50,699 nt of DNA, taken from sequence record PZ150740.1, one strand, 5' to 3'. The notes beneath the pieces were generated by a model. That model saw nothing but the letters and a program-made list of their open reading frames with translations. It had not been told where the DNA came from and made no database searches. Made by a program: the position numbers and the translations under genes. Positions 9,700 through 39,288 of this stretch are shown piece by piece. Numbering within the stretch: the stretch's first letter is position 1; each line of letters starts with the position of its first letter. This DNA comes from a phage.

Positions 9700-9816
9700 A
9701 TGATAGATAAAGCTATTGATTTCTTTTTTTATTCGATTATTGGTGCGGTTGGCTTTTTGGTTACTGCTGCTGGCCTGGCTATTATCTTAGCTGTTATTAA
9801 GGGGATTATGCGATGA
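9700..9816 (+). CDS. small single-TM peptide (38 aa, not in ORF track)
   Basis: RBS GAGGTGG then ATG; hydrophobic core IIGAVGFLVTAAGLAIILAVI. Confidence 0.35.
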   Translation: MIDKAIDFFFYSIIGAVGFLVTAAGLAIILAVIKGIMR

Positions 9817-9977
9817 GTCAAGACGGATTTTTTGAACGCCTTCAAATGGCAGAAGATGCCGGACTAAATAAAGAGGCGGCGCTTGAGGTGGCATATAAAA
9901 TTAAGACTCTTGATGAGGCTTTAGGTGATATGGATATGGATCTGAATCAAGCGCAATATTTGCAGATCCCACTATGA
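9813..9977 (+). CDS. small acidic protein (54 aa, not in ORF track)
   Basis: ATGA overlap with upstream ORF; hand-translated MSQDGFFERLQ... Confidence 0.35.
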   Translation: MSQDGFFERLQMAEDAGLNKEAALEVAYKIKTLDEALGDMDMDLNQAQYLQIPL

Positions 9978-10171
9978 TTGTTAATGATTGTGGATGCGAT
10001 TTCGATCCTGGTTGTGCGCGCTGTTTTCCGTTTTGAGGTAATTACGATGTATAAAGGTTTAATATTCTCCCTATTGATGGATCTGGTAAAGCCGTTAAAG
10101 ATTGGGCTGATAATGGCTATAAGTGCATTTGCTTTAATGCTGACGGCGGCGATCACGGTGATTACCAGTCA

Positions 10172-10756
10172 GTGCGCATACAGCATGAGAATATCGAATA
10201 CGTTAACGTCTGGATTGATGAAAGATTTTACCACCGCGCGCGCTGGGAGGAATGGGGCATTCCTGACTTTATTATGGCATTTCCACCATGCACCGACCTT
10301 GCAAATAGCGGATCTCGCCATTGGGCCAAAAAACGCCTTGAGAATCCATCGTTCCAGGATGAGGCCGCCGACACTTGCAGGATCGCGGCTGATATAGCTG
10401 ATTATTTCGGTGTTCCTTACATGATCGAAAATCCGGTTGGCAAGTTGTCAACGTTATGGCGAAAGCCTGATTATACGTTCCATCCGTGCGATTACGCTGG
10501 CTATCTGCCGGAAGATGATAAACATCCCGACTTCCCTGATATTATTCCGGCGCGGGATCGCTACTTTAAGAAAACGTGCCTCTGGACTGGCAACGGCTTT
10601 GTTATTCCTCCACGCGCTTTAATCCTGCCGAAAGAGGAAGACAAAGATAATCCAGGCTGGGCCAAAACTGGCGGCAAGTCATCGCGCACAAAGATGATCC
10701 GCTCCCTCACTCCGCGCGGATTTGCTCGCGCCGTCTTTGAGTCAAACTCAAAATAG
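10172..10756 (+). CDS. cytosine-C5 methyltransferase-like protein (catalytic core; N-terminus uncertain, frame open from 10055)
   Basis: FPPC (PC-motif-like), ENP(V)G (ENV-like), PARDRYF and GNGFV motifs in C5-MTase order; no ATG for motif-I region. Confidence 0.4.
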   Translation: MRIQHENIEYVNVWIDERFYHRARWEEWGIPDFIMAFPPCTDLANSGSRHWAKKRLENPSFQDEAADTCRIAADIADYFGVPYMIENPVGKLSTLWRKPDYTFHPCDYAGYLPEDDKHPDFPDIIPARDRYFKKTCLWTGNGFVIPPRALILPKEEDKDNPGWAKTGGKSSRTKMIRSLTPRGFARAVFESNSK

Positions 10757-34414: not shown

Positions 34415-34771
34415 TTACTGCATTGATGTAAATTGTTCCGTAAAAGTGGCTTTTACTTCCTGAACGGTTGGCGACAGTGGAGTAAGGCCGACGCTGCCGC
34501 TTTTCACCCTGAACAATCCAGGGCTTCCATCGGGCATGATCCACAAGAAAGGTTTTAGCCTGTGCTCATTCAGGAACTTGACAACATCTCTGTAATCAAG
34601 CCCAGCGTAAACAATGCTAAACTCTCGCCGGATTGTGTTAAAGCCTCCAGATGCTACCTGTGTGTATCCGTTACCGAATGCAATCTCTCGATCGTTATTT
34701 GATGACGTCATGGACCCGCCGCCGTTCTGAACCTGCGTACACCACTTAAACTGATCCAGCTTCATTATCAA
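34415..34771 (-). CDS. minor tail protein (lambda M-like)
   Basis: Size and position between tape measure and L-like gene. Confidence 0.55.
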   Translation of the reverse strand: MIMKLDQFKWCTQVQNGGGSMTSSNNDREIAFGNGYTQVASGGFNTIRREFSIVYAGLDYRDVVKFLNEHRLKPFLWIMPDGSPGLFRVKSGSVGLTPLSPTVQEVKATFTEQFTSMQ

Positions 34772-37449
34772 CCTCGCTTGCTCATAACAAATTCGTAAAC
34801 CTCCCCGCCCTGCATACAGGAACGTTTAATCATATCAGTAAAGATCATCTTAACGCCAGTTTCGATGCCCTTCGGATCGCTGCCGTTATTGATGCTAACA
34901 TCAATCCCACCAATGTTAAATTGAGGTGCTCCACCAGTGACAGCGCCACCGCCAGTATAGCCGGAACCACCAACAACGCCGCCATTAGCATAGCCTCTCA
35001 TCATGCGGTACAAGTTGCCTACCCCGATACTCTGCGTCGCCTCCTTCGTCATGACAAATTCACCTTTATGGACAATTCCGGCTGGCTCATACTTCCCGCC
35101 GTCGCCAGTGTATCCACCGCCAGCAAATCCGCCAATGTTCTTAAGCAAGCTCCCCATCGTCCAGGTTTGACCACCCATCAGGCCAGATAACGCATTAAAG
35201 ACAACCATTTTCGTGATCATCTGAATAATCATTTTGATGATAGCCGTCGAGAAGTCTTTAAAGTTTGCCTTGCCAGTAGCGATAAAATTCGCTAATTGGT
35301 TTGTAAGGCCGTTTAACGCCTCGCTTGCGATCTGCTGAACATTGCCATAGGCATTGTTTGCATCTTCCGCGAATAGCTCCCATGCGTTCTTTGCTCCGGC
35401 TAACCAGTTGCTTTGCGCCTCGTCTTGCGCCTGGTAATACAGCTTAAGTTTCGTCTCCATTTGCTGAAAAACTTCGTCGCTAACGCTTCCGCCTTGCGCC
35501 TCGTAGTCGGTGCGCAGCTTGCGTAACTCTAACTCACGCTCGATCTGCTTTTCAGTGTAGCCAAGTTGCTTAAGGCCAATCGCATCAATAGCCGCCTCCG
35601 TTTCACGGATAAACTTAAGACTATCTTGCTCCAGCTTGTTTTTGCGCTCCTGCAAAACAATCTGATCCCCTAGCTCCGCTTTTTGCCTTGCCATTTCAAG
35701 AACGGCTTTTTGCTCGTTTAGTAGCGCCTGTTCCGCTCCAGTCAATTTACGCTTGCTCTGCGCATCCTCCAGGATCTCTATCTGCTTTTCGATGCTCCAT
35801 AAAGATTTACGCTGACGAGAAATAACATCATTAACAGTGCGATGCTCTTTAAGCGTTTCCAGTTGCGCTTTTAAAACGTACAACTCTTTATCAAGCTGCT
35901 CAGTCGGGCCGCGAACTATTCCGCCTTTAGCCTCTTTCTTTTTCTGCTCCTGCTTCTTGATCTCCTCAAGCTCTTTGCGTCTGAACTCCACGTTTTCAGC
36001 CGCGCGCTTTTTCAGTTCTTCATCAGCAGAACGCGCCACACCCTTCTGATCCTCAATGGCTTTGTTTAAAGCCTCTTGTGCTGCTCTCACTCTGTTTAAT
36101 GACAGGTTTTCTTTGTCGATTCGCTCCGCTCGCTCAGCCATATCCCTATTCGCATCTTTTACGACCTTTCCAATGTCTTCATAAGTGTTAAGTGCAAACT
36201 TAAGCATAGGATTAACATAGCCAAGCTCTTTACCTAACAGGCCGCCTGACGGGGAAGCGTAATCACGTTTCGCTTTCAACACTTCATACCACGAATCGCC
36301 CAACTCAAGGACTTTGTTTTTGTGGTTTGCAATTTCGTTATTCAAGCTAACAAAGCTAGACGCGCCCTTGTACTCGTTGACTTTCTTTTTTGCGTCATCA
36401 TAAGTCATGCCAACGTCAACCAGTTTTTTAATCGCCTCGCTCGCGCCGTCTTTCGTGGTGATGTAAGCCTTTGCCAGATCTTCGGCGCTTTCTCCTGTTT
36501 TGTCGGAAAGCTCCTGGATTCCGGTAGCAATCTTTTCGGCAAACTCACCAGAAAGACCAGTTGCATCCTCAACTGTTTTTGTGATCTCCTTTAGCTGCGC
36601 ATTTGCCTTATATGCATTGTATGCAGCAAATCCAAGAGCACCAGTCAACACAGTCATTCCAGCACTTAAAGGAGTGATAAAGGTCATTAGTGCCTTAAAT
36701 GTATTAGCCACCCCACCAAAAGAATCCTTAATCTGTCCACCCTGCTGGATTGCTACCAACCAAACGGGCATACCAGAAGCAAGTGAAGTCACCACGTCTG
36801 TGATCTGCATTGGCAATAGCTTCATTGCTTGATTGTATTGGCCTGTAGAAATCCCAAGTTTTTGGATCTGCTTTTCCTGCTCTTTCAGTCTTGCGATGTA
36901 AGGTGCCGCCTCCTGGCTAACTCCAAGCTGTGCCGCTTTCATTTCCAGCAATTCAGACTTGCTTTTTCCGGCTGCTTCTTCCTGCTCACGCAAAGCCTGG
37001 ATGAATTTTTTAGCCTCTTCCGCTGCACGCGCTTTGTTCTTTGATTCCTCAAGCGCCGCGCGGCCTTCCTCTGTCATCGCTTTTTTTGTTGCGATCAGCT
37101 TGTTTTGCTGTGTCTCAAGAATTGCCCCAAGCTCAAAAAAAGTCTCATCAGGAACAATGCCCTTTTTCCATAGCGCATCAAGCTGTGTCGCCGCATTTCG
37201 CAGCTTATCCATCTTTGACGCGGTGGGATCAATTGACTCCTGGATTTTCTTAAATTCTGCTTTCTGGCGCGCCAATTCTTCGGCAAACTGTTTAGCTTGC
37301 TGTCGCGCCACAACCTCAGAATCAACAAATTCATTAACGCTTTTTTTTGCGTCGTCGTTTGCCTTCTTGAATTGCTGCAATGATTTAACAGCATTATTGA
37401 CCTGCGACACGTCAACGCCTAGCGTTAGGCCAGCGTATTTCTCAGCCAT
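34768..37449 (-). CDS. tail tape measure protein
   Basis: 893 aa, coiled-coil-rich, follows G/GT chaperone genes. Confidence 0.8.
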   Translation of the reverse strand: MAEKYAGLTLGVDVSQVNNAVKSLQQFKKANDDAKKSVNEFVDSEVVARQQAKQFAEELARQKAEFKKIQESIDPTASKMDKLRNAATQLDALWKKGIVPDETFFELGAILETQQNKLIATKKAMTEEGRAALEESKNKARAAEEAKKFIQALREQEEAAGKSKSELLEMKAAQLGVSQEAAPYIARLKEQEKQIQKLGISTGQYNQAMKLLPMQITDVVTSLASGMPVWLVAIQQGGQIKDSFGGVANTFKALMTFITPLSAGMTVLTGALGFAAYNAYKANAQLKEITKTVEDATGLSGEFAEKIATGIQELSDKTGESAEDLAKAYITTKDGASEAIKKLVDVGMTYDDAKKKVNEYKGASSFVSLNNEIANHKNKVLELGDSWYEVLKAKRDYASPSGGLLGKELGYVNPMLKFALNTYEDIGKVVKDANRDMAERAERIDKENLSLNRVRAAQEALNKAIEDQKGVARSADEELKKRAAENVEFRRKELEEIKKQEQKKKEAKGGIVRGPTEQLDKELYVLKAQLETLKEHRTVNDVISRQRKSLWSIEKQIEILEDAQSKRKLTGAEQALLNEQKAVLEMARQKAELGDQIVLQERKNKLEQDSLKFIRETEAAIDAIGLKQLGYTEKQIERELELRKLRTDYEAQGGSVSDEVFQQMETKLKLYYQAQDEAQSNWLAGAKNAWELFAEDANNAYGNVQQIASEALNGLTNQLANFIATGKANFKDFSTAIIKMIIQMITKMVVFNALSGLMGGQTWTMGSLLKNIGGFAGGGYTGDGGKYEPAGIVHKGEFVMTKEATQSIGVGNLYRMMRGYANGGVVGGSGYTGGGAVTGGAPQFNIGGIDVSINNGSDPKGIETGVKMIFTDMIKRSCMQGGEVYEFVMSKRG

Positions 37450-37487
37450 TTTAAAACCTCCAGATATTAAAAAGCGCCTTGCGGCGC

Positions 37488-38122
37488 TTATGTTTTGTTT
37501 GAATGAATCATTTCTAGCGCCTTTTGTTCCATGATGCGCAAATCATTTAGCGCCATCTCCCGATCCTCAATCTTGTAAATGTCAAAAAGCATAGGCAAAA
37601 CGTTATAGTCGAACCCATACACACTGCCGCTAGTCGATCTCCATTGCGTCTGCATAGCGCAAAACAGATCCCAAGATTGAAACATTGATTCATCAAAAAT
37701 TACCTCCGGCGGCTCCTCCCCTTCGTAGTCTGAACGGGATAGGCCGACGGCCTCTAATTGTGCGTCAGTTGGCGGCTTGAGGTAAAACAGGTAAACCGCC
37801 CGCTTTAGTTTTTTACCCGCTGCCCCGCAAGTGCTTTCATATAATGACCAGTCAGCGATAATGACGCAGAAGGGTAATAATCCAGCAATTTAGCAACGTT
37901 TTCCTCGTTAAATTCATCTTCCAGATCCCAACCGGAAGCAAGGAAGGTGATCATTTCTACGTCACTCATCGGCTTTTCTGCCGTGTATCGCTCGTGAATC
38001 TCGCTTGCCTTCTTGTGGCGCACAGTGAAAACAATAACTTGCTCATCACCATTTGGAAGCACGAAAGAAACAGGCAGTTTAAAATCAGGCAGTGGGCCTA
38101 ACGTTAGTTTCATCTTTGCCAT
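37488..38122 (-). CDS. tail assembly chaperone G and GT fusion via -1 frameshift (G = 37805-38122)
   Basis: G ORF ends ...VKN-stop; -1 frame open from slippery site to 37488 and matches track ORF 37488-37685. Confidence 0.7.
37808..37814 (-). other. slippery heptamer A_AAA_AAC for programmed -1 ribosomal frameshift
   Basis: Minus strand GTA AAA AAC TAA at end of G ORF; -1 frame continues 100+ codons. Confidence 0.65.
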
Positions 38123-38145
38123 CTCAAGATCTCCTTATAGCACTT

Positions 38146-38190
38146 TTTGTTAAAAGTGGAATTAATTTATTTGATAGATTGATTTTACAG
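38146..38190 (+). promoter_or_regulatory. orphan box copy, antisense to tail operon
   Basis: TATAGCACTTTTTGTTAAAAG + 18 bp + TAGATT on plus strand; its complement abuts RBS of G gene. Confidence 0.4.
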
Positions 38191-38197
38191 GAATGAA

Positions 38198-38222
38198 AAA
38201 AGGGGCGCAACGCCCCTTGTTT
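38198..38222. terminator. rho-independent terminator downstream of major tail protein gene
   Basis: GGGGCG-caa-CGCCCC with flanking T/A runs. Confidence 0.6.
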
Positions 38223-38884
38223 TACTTAACGTCAGAAGGTAAGAACGTGAATCGACCTTTCAGAGATACGGAAAGGGAAACAGTTTCCATTTCGTTCATA
38301 GTGGTTTGCGGAATGTCATTAAAAGACAATACGCCAGCCCAGCAACGCATCTCTTTAGCTTTCGGCACGTACATACGCAAGGCGGTCACGTCGCCGGACT
38401 CCTCAGCCTCGCGCAAGATCGGATAAATCGGATTATCATACTCATGCGCGAAAGTATAGGTAAGAGAAACGGCGCTCTTGTAGGTCGGCAACTGCTGCTC
38501 CTGGTCATCAGCCAAACACTGATAAGTGTAATACTGTTGCTCGCCGCCGTCCTGCGCAAGATCCTGTACGCAAGGAACCTCTACCCAAGATTTCACTTCT
38601 CGGAAAGTTGCTGTGTTCTGTCCTTCTGGAAATACGTTTGTATCTTTAGTGCTAACACCCTCAAGAGTAACACTTACATTATCTGATACTTCCTTAACTC
38701 GAAGCACTCGACTAACAAGTTTGCCCCAAGAAGATGTTTCAATAAGAACATAAGCGCCTTTTTTGATGCTTTGAGTGTTTTCGGTTGTAAAAACAGGATT
38801 ATCAGCATTGCTGATTTGAGTCGCGCTAATTGGCTCACCCATATTAACGCCGATGAAAATTTGAGAACCATTAGGCAAGTGCAT
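38222..38884 (-). CDS. major tail protein
   Basis: Position upstream of G/GT; followed by attenuating terminator. Confidence 0.6.
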   Translation of the reverse strand: MHLPNGSQIFIGVNMGEPISATQISNADNPVFTTENTQSIKKGAYVLIETSSWGKLVSRVLRVKEVSDNVSVTLEGVSTKDTNVFPEGQNTATFREVKSWVEVPCVQDLAQDGGEQQYYTYQCLADDQEQQLPTYKSAVSLTYTFAHEYDNPIYPILREAEESGDVTALRMYVPKAKEMRCWAGVLSFNDIPQTTMNEMETVSLSVSLKGRFTFLPSDVK

Positions 38885-38886
38885 GA

Positions 38887-39288
38887 TTATTCCTCCTTTG
38901 TGTCAAGCCTAACACTGAAACGGATCGGCAAGAACCAACCTGTTTCACTTTTTAGTAATGCGTGGACGTTTGCCCCCTCGCTAATATAGCCAGTTTCAAA
39001 CATTCTACCATCATAGAAAAATCTCGCAATCTCTTTAGCCAGCAAACGCGCTTTATCAGTGCCACCGCCAGGAGGAATGACAATCCCAACCTGAACCAAA
39101 CCGATATAAGAAACACATTTTCTATCAAGAGATATGCGATCCGTGTCTGCTTCCATGTAGTTAAATTTTAACCACATAGAACCATCTCCAGGCGGCACAA
39201 AATCAACGTTTTCATAGGCTATCTTAAATTGTGATTCATATTCAGCCGCCAGCGCCTTTCTTGCCGCCAACATTAAATCATAGTGCAT
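38887..39288 (-). CDS. tail terminator / tail completion protein (by position)
   Basis: ORF track; synteny. Confidence 0.4.
   Translation of the reverse strand: MHYDLMLAARKALAAEYESQFKIAYENVDFVPPGDGSMWLKFNYMEADTDRISLDRKCVSYIGLVQVGIVIPPGGGTDKARLLAKEIARFFYDGRMFETGYISEGANVHALLKSETGWFLPIRFSVRLDTKEE

What the first reader, a model, noticed from the sequence alone, without database searches (positions are those of the whole stretch)
37488..38122. Programmed -1 frameshift joining tail chaperones G and T
The G ORF ends GTA AAA AAC TAA. The heptamer A_AAA_AAC (plus 37808-37814) is a classical slippery site, and the -1 frame stays open for 100+ codons to 37488, ending in track ORF 37488-37685. This is the conserved G/GT arrangement upstream of tape measure genes.
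Basis: partly seen in the sequence, partly recalled or inferred. Interest (0 to 1): 0.4.

Follow-up and report, generated by a model that had tools for sequence, protein, structure and literature searches.

The report
Tail chaperone G/GT −1 frameshift site
This is the ordinary, widely conserved ribosomal slip site by which a T1-like coliphage makes a short and a long version of its tail assembly chaperone; it is real, but already known for this phage family and simply left unannotated in this genus.

Summary
On the minus strand the 105-codon gene 38122-37805 ends CGG GTA AAA AAC TAA. The heptamer A_AAA_AAC lies at 37814-37808. The -1 frame then runs 106 codons to the TAA at 37490-37488.

The window is a Warwickvirus (Drexlerviridae, T1-like), about 99% identical to phages PeterMerian, Sip and JLBYU26. 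The upstream ORF is a Pfam Phage_TAC_4 chaperone and the -1 extension is DUF1799. The fused 211-aa product matches PHROG 17368 end to end. The pair sits between the tail tube gene and the tape measure gene.

In 101 distinct related sequences, with T identity down to about 38%, the G stop always follows the same spot directly. It is preceded by NNA_AAA_AAC (78), NNG_GGA_AAC (8) or, in Webervirus, A_AAA_GTY/GCC (15). The residue before the motif changes but its last base co-varies with the motif.

Homology and codon-position periodicity in the -1 frame begin right at the slip site, 41 codons before the only ATG. That ATG has no usable Shine-Dalgarno sequence.

Sister phages Stevie and Skenny already carry joined "frameshift product" CDSs. 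The Warwickvirus records inspected do not. Verdict: confirmed, interpretation supported, already known, low interest.

The parts
37805..38122 (-). Gene G: 105-aa tail assembly (tape measure) chaperone, zero frame, including the TAA stop at 37805-37807. Its own Shine-Dalgarno AAGGAG lies at 38131-38136, 8 nt before the ATG.
   Evidence: Pfam PF08748 Phage_TAC_4, E 5e-31, full length. The exact sequence is public as 'TfmA / tape measure chaperone' of Warwickvirus.
37808..37814 (-). Slippery heptamer A_AAA_AAC (Lys AAA in the P site, Asn AAC in the A site), directly followed by the G stop codon.
   Evidence: It is the only ORF-terminal heptamer in the window. The heptamer-plus-stop arrangement is conserved in 86 of 101 distinct homologous segments, as A_AAA_AAC or G_GGA_AAC.
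37488..37808 (-). T extension in the -1 frame: 106 codons (CTA 37808-37806 ... ACA) plus the TAA at 37488-37490. GT = complement(join(37488..37808,37808..38122)), 211 aa, 24.3 kDa.
   Evidence: PF08809 DUF1799 matches residues 23-101 and phrog_680 residues 9-105 of the extension. The fused protein matches phrog_17368 at 1-211 of 213, E 6e-99. Third-codon-position diversity falls in the -1 frame.
37683..37685 (-). The only ATG/GTG/TTG in the T frame (codon 42 of the extension). It is the start of the 65-aa ORF annotated in public records and is probably not a real start.
   Evidence: The nearest GGAGG (37703-37707) lies 17 nt upstream. The Met is not conserved in Webervirus, Dhillonvirus or Ralstonia homologues. 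Gene callers choose different starts.
37771..37800 (-). Candidate stimulatory hairpin: an 8-bp stem (GGCGGUUU / AAGCCGCC) with a 14-nt loop, 7 nt 3' of the heptamer. It is weak in this phage.
   Evidence: Here -13.2 kcal/mol, z -0.4. A longer version in T1 and Tlsvirus scores z -3 to -4.6. There is no covariation support, and it is broken in 4 of 25 lineages.
38200..38218 (-). Terminator-like hairpin between the tail tube gene and G.
   Evidence: Annotated as a terminator in phages Sip and T1.
37472..37489 (-). Terminator-like hairpin that overlaps the T stop codon, before the tape measure gene.
   Evidence: Annotated in Sip, T1, Stevie and Skenny.
38222..38884 (-). Context: tail tube protein gene (upstream neighbour).
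   Evidence: PF08813 Phage_tail_3, E 2e-62.
34768..37449 (-). Context: tape measure protein gene (downstream neighbour), 893 aa.
   Evidence: PF06791 TMP_2 and PF09718 Tape_meas_lam_C.

Best explanation
This is a programmed -1 ribosomal frameshift of the lambda G/GT type. Most ribosomes translate gene G (38122-37805) and terminate at the UAA, giving the 11.9-kDa chaperone. A small fraction slips back one base with tRNA-Lys and tRNA-Asn on A_AAA_AAC (37814-37808). These ribosomes read CUA next and continue for 106 codons, giving the 24.3-kDa fusion GT (...QRVKN-LKRAVYLFY...). By analogy with lambda, which is inferred and not shown here, the shared G part binds the tape measure protein. The T part recruits the tail tube protein, and the fixed low GT:G ratio is set by slip efficiency. 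The adjacent stop codon, and in some relatives a downstream hairpin, may raise efficiency. That step is inferred and unproven.
For: Anatomy read directly from the sequence. G is Phage_TAC_4 and T is DUF1799; the fusion matches PHROG 17368 over its full length. The gene order is tail terminator, tail tube, G, T, tape measure, minor tail. tblastn of the fusion finds 1129 phage records, and 1086 of them cover at least 80% of it in two pieces. In 101 distinct homologous segments T is always in the -1 frame and its homology starts at nucleotide -1 relative to the G stop. Of these, 78 have NNA AAA AAC stop and 8 have NNG GGA AAC stop. The residue before the motif varies (V, E, A, Q or L, A, R, M), but its third base always matches the motif. 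Lys is always AAA and Asn always AAC. In 7 segments the -1 frame opens only 7 nt before the G stop, which pins the shift to the heptamer. Between the G stop and the ATG, nucleotide diversity by -1-frame codon position is 6.5 / 4.8 / 16.5, the same pattern as in bona fide coding parts. Residues L1, A4, Y9, L18, G22, L23 and D27, all before the ATG, are invariant or nearly so across clades. A_AAA_AAC is a proven -1 site in E. coli IS1. Joined frameshift CDSs exist at the homologous site in Stevie and Skenny.
Against: There is no direct evidence of the GT protein for this phage or genus. The exact fused sequence is absent from a collection of about 15 billion proteins. All eight Warwickvirus records inspected annotate two separate CDSs or omit T. 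A_AAA_AAC is far less shift-prone in E. coli than A_AAA_AAG (review text). The downstream hairpin in this phage folds no better than shuffled sequence. No Rfam frameshift element matches.
Confidence: 0.93

Rival explanations
1. T is a separate small protein (65 aa, 7.8 kDa), translated on its own from the ATG at 37685, as most public records annotate it. No frameshift occurs.
For: An ATG-initiated ORF exists. It is annotated as a CDS in Sip, JLBYU26, PeterMerian, Kalemo and Poky, and the exact 65-aa sequence is in public databases.
Against: Homology (PF08809, phrog_680) and -1-frame codon periodicity extend 33-41 codons upstream of the ATG, right up to the G stop. The nearest Shine-Dalgarno-like GGAGG is 17 nt away, whereas G and the tape measure gene have 7-8 nt spacing. 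The Met is missing in Webervirus, Dhillonvirus and Ralstonia homologues, and the first start codon in the frame drifts between -124 and +206. Different gene callers invent different starts, including out-of-frame G sequence and a CTG start. A mediocre AlphaFold model (pLDDT 67) predicts structure in residues 3-38 with confidence similar to the rest.
Confidence: 0.03
2. The GT reading frame is reached by transcriptional slippage. RNA polymerase adds one A in the A6 run, so a subset of mRNAs encodes ...VKKLKRAV... in one frame.
For: The site contains a run of six A (seven in the GAA AAA AAC variants). Homopolymer runs are known slippage sites (review). Two IMG/VR assemblies show length variation at this run.
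Against: Eight distinct homologues have G_GGA_AAC at the identical position. That motif fits tandem tRNA re-pairing but has no long homopolymer. Efficient bacterial transcriptional slippage usually needs runs longer than six; this rests on established knowledge and was not tested here. The two A5 assemblies carry other frame breaks too, so they are sequencing errors.
Confidence: 0.04
3. Chance juxtaposition: the heptamer and the open -1 frame have no function.
For: None beyond the lack of direct protein data.
Against: The joint chance is about 2e-5 per gene. The arrangement is retained across 101 distinct sequences, with co-variation of the base preceding the motif.
Confidence: 0.005

Closest known systems
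Phage lambda G/GT programmed -1 frameshift (Levin, Hendrix & Casjens 1993; Xu, Hendrix & Duda 2004, 2013, 2014, as summarised in PMC5009743)
   Same: Two ORFs lie between the tail tube gene and the tape measure gene. The second is in the -1 frame without its own start. There is an X_XXY_YYZ heptamer near the end of G. The expected outcome is a low-level fusion sharing the whole G part.
   Different: The motif is A_AAA_AAC rather than G_GGA_AAG. The Pfam families differ (Phage_TAC_4 plus DUF1799; no lambda G or T family matched). The G stop abuts the heptamer in all 101 distinct homologous segments examined, including the Webervirus variant. From memory, lambda G runs a few codons past its slip site.
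Annotated frameshifted tape measure chaperones of T1-like phages Stevie (KM236241, Tlsvirus) and Skenny (MK931444, Webervirus)
   Same: Same gene family and same position. Both records carry a joined CDS and both papers mention the conserved frameshift.
   Different: Skenny and other Webervirus phages lack the heptamer and have only the tetramer A_AAA followed by GTY or GCC. The eight Warwickvirus records inspected, this window's genus, do not annotate the join.
IS1 insA-insB' -1 frameshift at A_AAA_AAC in E. coli
   Same: Same heptamer and same host translation apparatus. It is a proven low-efficiency site with no established stimulator.
   Different: It is a transposase fusion, not a phage chaperone, and its protein families are unrelated.
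E. coli dnaX -1 frameshift (A_AAA_AAG with an upstream Shine-Dalgarno-like element and a downstream hairpin)
   Same: An A-rich heptamer decoded by tRNA-Lys, with a possible hairpin 7 nt downstream.
   Different: The last base is C rather than G. No conserved upstream Shine-Dalgarno-like element is present: the GGG/GGT/GGA codon varies. The hairpin is weak here and not universally conserved. In dnaX the product is shortened rather than extended.

Membership tests
G/GT-type tail assembly chaperone frameshift (Xu, Hendrix & Duda 2004) | A pair of ORFs lies directly between the major tail (tube) gene and the tape measure gene. | tested here: met
   Tail tube PF08813 at 38222-38884; tape measure PF06791/PF09718 at 34768-37449; G and T lie between them.
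G/GT-type tail assembly chaperone frameshift (Xu, Hendrix & Duda 2004) | [quoted passage not shown] | tested here: met
   The frame relation is -1 in the window and in all intact loci. The first start codon is not conserved. GGAGG lies 17 nt from the ATG.
G/GT-type tail assembly chaperone frameshift (Xu, Hendrix & Duda 2004) | A slippery sequence (X_XXY_YYZ) sits in the zero frame within the region where both frames are open. | tested here: met
   A_AAA_AAC at 37814-37808. In 7 relatives the two-frame overlap is exactly this heptamer.
G/GT-type tail assembly chaperone frameshift (Xu, Hendrix & Duda 2004) | The arrangement is conserved among divergent relatives. | tested here: met
   101 distinct segments, with T identity falling to about 38%. 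86 have a canonical heptamer plus adjacent stop, and 15 (Webervirus) have a tetramer variant.
G/GT-type tail assembly chaperone frameshift (Xu, Hendrix & Duda 2004) | A fusion protein is actually made at a low fixed ratio and is required for tail assembly. | not testable with these tools
   No proteomic or genetic data were found for Warwickvirus. The fused sequence is absent from public protein collections.
Pfam PF08748 Phage_TAC_4 (G part) | Score above the gathering threshold over the full domain. | tested here: met
   107.9 bits against a cut-off of 21.1; residues 1-105 match profile positions 1-124 of 124.
Pfam PF08809 DUF1799 (T part) | Score above the gathering threshold. | tested here: met
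   48 bits against a cut-off of 26; extension residues 23-101 match profile positions 3-80 of 80.
Stimulated -1 PRF (dnaX-like: upstream Shine-Dalgarno element plus downstream structure) | A conserved Shine-Dalgarno-like element about 10 nt 5' of the heptamer. | tested here: not met
   The upstream sequence GCN GGN CAN CGN varies at third positions, and no AGGAGG-like element is conserved.
Stimulated -1 PRF (dnaX-like: upstream Shine-Dalgarno element plus downstream structure) | A stable, conserved hairpin or pseudoknot 5-9 nt 3' of the heptamer. | tested here: inconclusive
   An 8-bp stem lies 7 nt downstream but has z -0.4 here. It is strong in T1 and Tlsvirus (z to -4.6). It is broken without compensation in 4 of 25 lineages and shows 1 double change only. 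Its arms are codons of conserved residues (RAV...KPP).

The most novel reading that the evidence does not exclude
In this whole chaperone family (Phage_TAC_4 + DUF1799) the zero-frame stop codon abuts the slip motif in all 101 distinct sequences. The motif ends in AAC, which is poorly shifty in E. coli, rather than AAG. This could mean the signal is a 'shifty stop'. In that case slow termination at UAA/UGA, rather than an RNA structure, would set GT:G stoichiometry, and the ratio would respond to release-factor availability or host physiology. The Webervirus tetramer variant (A_AAA_GTY-stop) would then be a P-site-only version of the same device.
Probability: 0.25. Interest if true: 0.35.

Novelty: already known. 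Interest (0 to 1): 0.12.

Why it matters
The main value is for annotation. Public Warwickvirus genomes list a 105-aa chaperone plus either a truncated 65-aa 'hypothetical protein' or nothing, instead of G and the 211-aa GT. That mislabels a core tail-assembly protein and hides 41 conserved codons as 'intergenic'. It is also relevant to work showing that bacterial Avs17 sensors recognise the N-terminal core shared by the short and long chaperone isoforms. Biologically it adds nothing unexpected to the G/GT paradigm.

Tried and rejected
1. A downstream stimulatory RNA structure was sought by folding four windows, by alignment folding and pair counting on 25 relatives, and by z-scores on 59 distinct sequences. 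A hairpin exists, but it is weak in this phage and has no covariation support, so I do not claim it as part of the mechanism.

2. An Rfam scan of 37300-38300 gave only sub-threshold sRNA hits on the terminator hairpin and no frameshift element.

3. A sequence search of PDB with the fusion found nothing. An AlphaFold model of the T extension from a 4-sequence alignment was mediocre (pLDDT 67). Foldseek of that model against PDB gave no match with E below 4.8.

4. The search for homologous proteins with the fused query returned only three T-frame ORFs, each with an artefactual N-terminus. These are useful only as evidence that gene callers cannot find a real start.

5. Other in-frame heptamers with long open -1 frames in the window (37347, 37140, 47142, 10328) are spurious ORFs nested in real genes or, at 10328, lie inside a gene broken elsewhere.

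6. The two IMG/VR loci with A5 instead of A6 (L014, L030) were rejected as natural single-frame GT genes because they carry further frame breaks.

Full report
**What is in the sequence**

All features are on the minus strand. An ORF starts at ATG 38122, preceded by AAGGAG with an 8-nt spacer. It ends ...CAG CGG GTA AAA AAC TAA, with the stop at 37807-37805. It encodes 105 residues.

Shifted back by one base, the reading continues CTA AAG CGG GCG GTT ... for 106 sense codons to TAA at 37490-37488. The ORF 37488-37685 listed mechanically (65 aa) is only the part of this frame that follows its first and only ATG/GTG/TTG.

**Is it more than chance?**

- Among 115 mechanical ORFs of at least 80 aa in the window, this is the only one with an X_XXY_YYZ heptamer directly before its stop.
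- From base composition, a heptamer at a fixed position has a probability of about 0.004. A frame staying open for at least 106 codons also has a probability of about 0.004.
- The other heptamers followed by long open -1 frames all lie in spurious ORFs nested inside real genes.

**Identity and context**

- The region is about 99% identical to Escherichia phages PeterMerian, vB_Eco_Sip and JLBYU26, genus Warwickvirus, subfamily Tempevirinae, family Drexlerviridae. These are the T1-like phages.
- The 105-aa protein is a full-length Pfam Phage_TAC_4 tail assembly chaperone (E 5e-31).
- The -1 extension is Pfam DUF1799, matching residues 23-101 (E 1.5e-12).
- The hypothetical 211-aa fusion matches PHROG 17368 from position 1 to 211 of 213 (E 6e-99). 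Fused proteins of this kind are therefore already in phage databases.
- The gene order is tail terminator (38887-39288), tail tube (38222-38884), G, T, tape measure protein (34768-37449), minor tail protein (34415-34771).
- Terminator-like hairpins flank the G-T unit at 38218-38200 and 37489-37472.

**Comparative evidence**

tblastn of the fusion finds 1129 phage records. In 1086 of them the match covers at least 80% of the query in two pieces, that is, in two frames.

I collected 121 loci from GenBank phages and IMG/VR. The collapse to 101 distinct 480-nt segments around the G stop was run over all of them. One locus (L121) covers an unrelated region and so contributed no segment.

- In every intact case T is in the -1 frame, and its homology begins at the nucleotide just before the G stop.
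- The three codons before the stop are NNA AAA AAC in 78 segments and NNG GGA AAC in 8.
- In the 15 Webervirus segments they are GCA AAA GTY or GCC.
- The residue encoded by the first of these codons varies: V, E, A or Q in the A-type motif, and L, A, R or M in the G-type motif. Its third base is always the one that completes the X_XXY_YYZ pattern.
- Lys is always AAA, never AAG. Asn is always AAC, never AAT. This is selection on the nucleotides, not on the protein.
- In seven segments a -1-frame stop codon lies immediately 5' of the heptamer. The two frames then overlap only across those seven bases, which pins the shift site.

**Is the 'gap' translated?**

Public records treat the 120 nt between the G stop and the ATG at 37685 as intergenic.

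- In 38 distinct Tempevirinae and T1 sequences, nucleotide diversity in that stretch is 6.5 / 4.8 / 16.5 at -1-frame codon positions 1 / 2 / 3. The pattern is the same in the body of G in its own frame (10.9 / 6.5 / 24.0) and in T after the ATG (11.0 / 4.7 / 24.6).
- In a protein alignment spanning Escherichia, Klebsiella, Ralstonia and metagenomic homologues, residues L1, A4, Y9, L18, G22, L23 and D27 are invariant or nearly so. All precede the ATG.
- The ATG's Met is absent in Webervirus, Dhillonvirus and Ralstonia homologues.
- The first start codon in the frame wanders from -124 to +206 relative to the G stop.
- In the window the nearest GGAGG (37707-37703) is 17 nt from the ATG. G and the tape measure gene have spacers of 7-8 nt.
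- Automatic gene callers have given this ORF an out-of-frame N-terminus read from inside G, or a CTG start.

Independent initiation of T is therefore very unlikely.

**Mechanism**

The best explanation is tandem -1 slippage of peptidyl-tRNA-Lys and aminoacyl-tRNA-Asn on A_AAA_AAC. This yields ...QRVKN-LKRAVYLFY..., a GT fusion of 211 aa and 24.3 kDa, alongside G at 11.9 kDa.

A_AAA_AAC is a proven low-efficiency -1 site in E. coli IS1 with no established stimulator (Sharma et al. 2014, PMC4066793). It is much less shift-prone there than A_AAA_AAG (Atkins et al. 2016, PMC5009743). That would suit the low GT:G ratio, which is about 1:30 in lambda.

The functional roles are taken from lambda and were not tested here: G and the G part of GT on the tape measure protein, and the T part recruiting the tube protein.

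Transcriptional slippage on the A6 run is a minor rival. The G_GGA_AAC variants at the identical position argue for a ribosomal mechanism, because they fit tRNA re-pairing and contain no long homopolymer.

**Possible stimulators**

- A hairpin can form 7 nt after the heptamer: 37800-37793 with 37778-37771, 8 bp, 14-nt loop. In this phage it is no better than shuffled sequence (-13.2 kcal/mol, z -0.4).
- T1, Tlsvirus and others have a longer two-part version with z down to -4.6. Warwickvirus lost the inner stem through a Gln-to-Leu change (CAG to CTC).
- The hairpin is broken without compensation in 4 of 25 lineages. It has essentially no covariation, and its arms encode conserved residues.
- It is absent in the Dhillonvirus-like clades.
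- No conserved Shine-Dalgarno-like element lies upstream, and Rfam has no match.
- The stop codon directly after the motif is invariant in all 101 segments. It might act as a 'shifty stop', but it also encodes the invariant Leu that begins T, so the two constraints cannot be separated here.

**Comparison with what is known**

This is the conserved G/GT frameshift of long-tailed phages (Levin 1993; Xu, Hendrix & Duda 2004; reviewed in PMC5009743).

- It has already been recognised in T1-like phages. [quoted passage not shown]
- Skenny has a 'tail assembly chaperone frameshift product' (PMC6763657).
- What is missing is the annotation in this genus. The eight Warwickvirus records I inspected (Sip, JLBYU26, PeterMerian, Kalemo, tonnikala, swan01, Poky, tunzivis) list two separate CDSs or omit T. 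The T1 record likewise lists two separate CDSs and damhaus (Hanrivervirus) annotates only G.
- Neither possible fused sequence is in a collection of about 15 billion proteins, whereas the 105-aa and 65-aa pieces are.

**Verdict**

Confidence in a programmed -1 frameshift producing GT is about 0.93. The remaining doubt is only the absence of direct protein evidence. Novelty: already known. Interest is low; the practical outcome is an annotation correction, complement(join(37488..37808,37808..38122)).

**Dead ends**

- PDB sequence search.
- AlphaFold model of T, pLDDT 67.
- Foldseek of that model against PDB.

Noticed in passing
window 9813-10756, + strand: The DNA cytosine methyltransferase gene is broken relative to JLBYU26, where it is a single 257-aa CDS. 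The window lacks one base near 9943 (CTTG to CTG) and one near 10074 (TATTTGA to TATTGA). The first 31 codons are therefore in one frame and the rest, including the FDGSGK motif, in the -1 frame. All eight listed relatives have the longer version. This is either a sequencing error or genuine inactivation. The in-frame A_AAA_AAC at 10328 is not at the frame junction, so this is not a recoding site.
   Followed up: partly
L033, L036, L062-L075, L120 (Klebsiella Webervirus homologues): The canonical heptamer is replaced by GCA AAA GTC/GTT/GCC TAA. This leaves only the tetramer A_AAA before an adjacent stop, and no other heptamer exists in the 94-nt two-frame overlap. Even so, the T frame and its homology are intact and Skenny annotates a frameshift product. 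It may be a P-site-only slip site.
   Followed up: partly
L016, L018, L032 (T1), L043, L049 and others, 7-8 nt 3' of the heptamer: There is a two-part hairpin, GGGCGGTT..CTG......CAG..AACCGCCC, with z-scores of -3 to -4.6 against shuffles. It is much stronger than in the window's genus and absent in the L023/L026, L055, L061 and Dhillonvirus-like lineages. It looks like a lineage-specific candidate stimulator.
   Followed up: partly
window 38200-38218 and 37472-37489, - strand: Terminator-like GC hairpins with T tracts bracket the G-T unit. The second overlaps the T stop codon. They could attenuate transcription stepwise between the tube, chaperone and tape measure genes. The same features are annotated in T1, Sip, Stevie and Skenny.
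   Followed up: partly
L014 and L030 (IMG/VR contigs 2974632794_000001 and 2706796530_000001): The A6 run is A5, which would put G and T in a different frame relation. Both contigs also have other frame breaks in G or T, so these are homopolymer sequencing or assembly errors, not natural fused genes.
   Followed up: yes
P0001, P0003, P0022 (public protein predictions of the T frame): Gene callers give the T ORF artefactual N-termini. Some are 25-30 residues of out-of-frame translation of the 3' end of G, and one uses a CTG start. Public protein databases therefore contain several mutually inconsistent versions of this ORF.
   Followed up: yes
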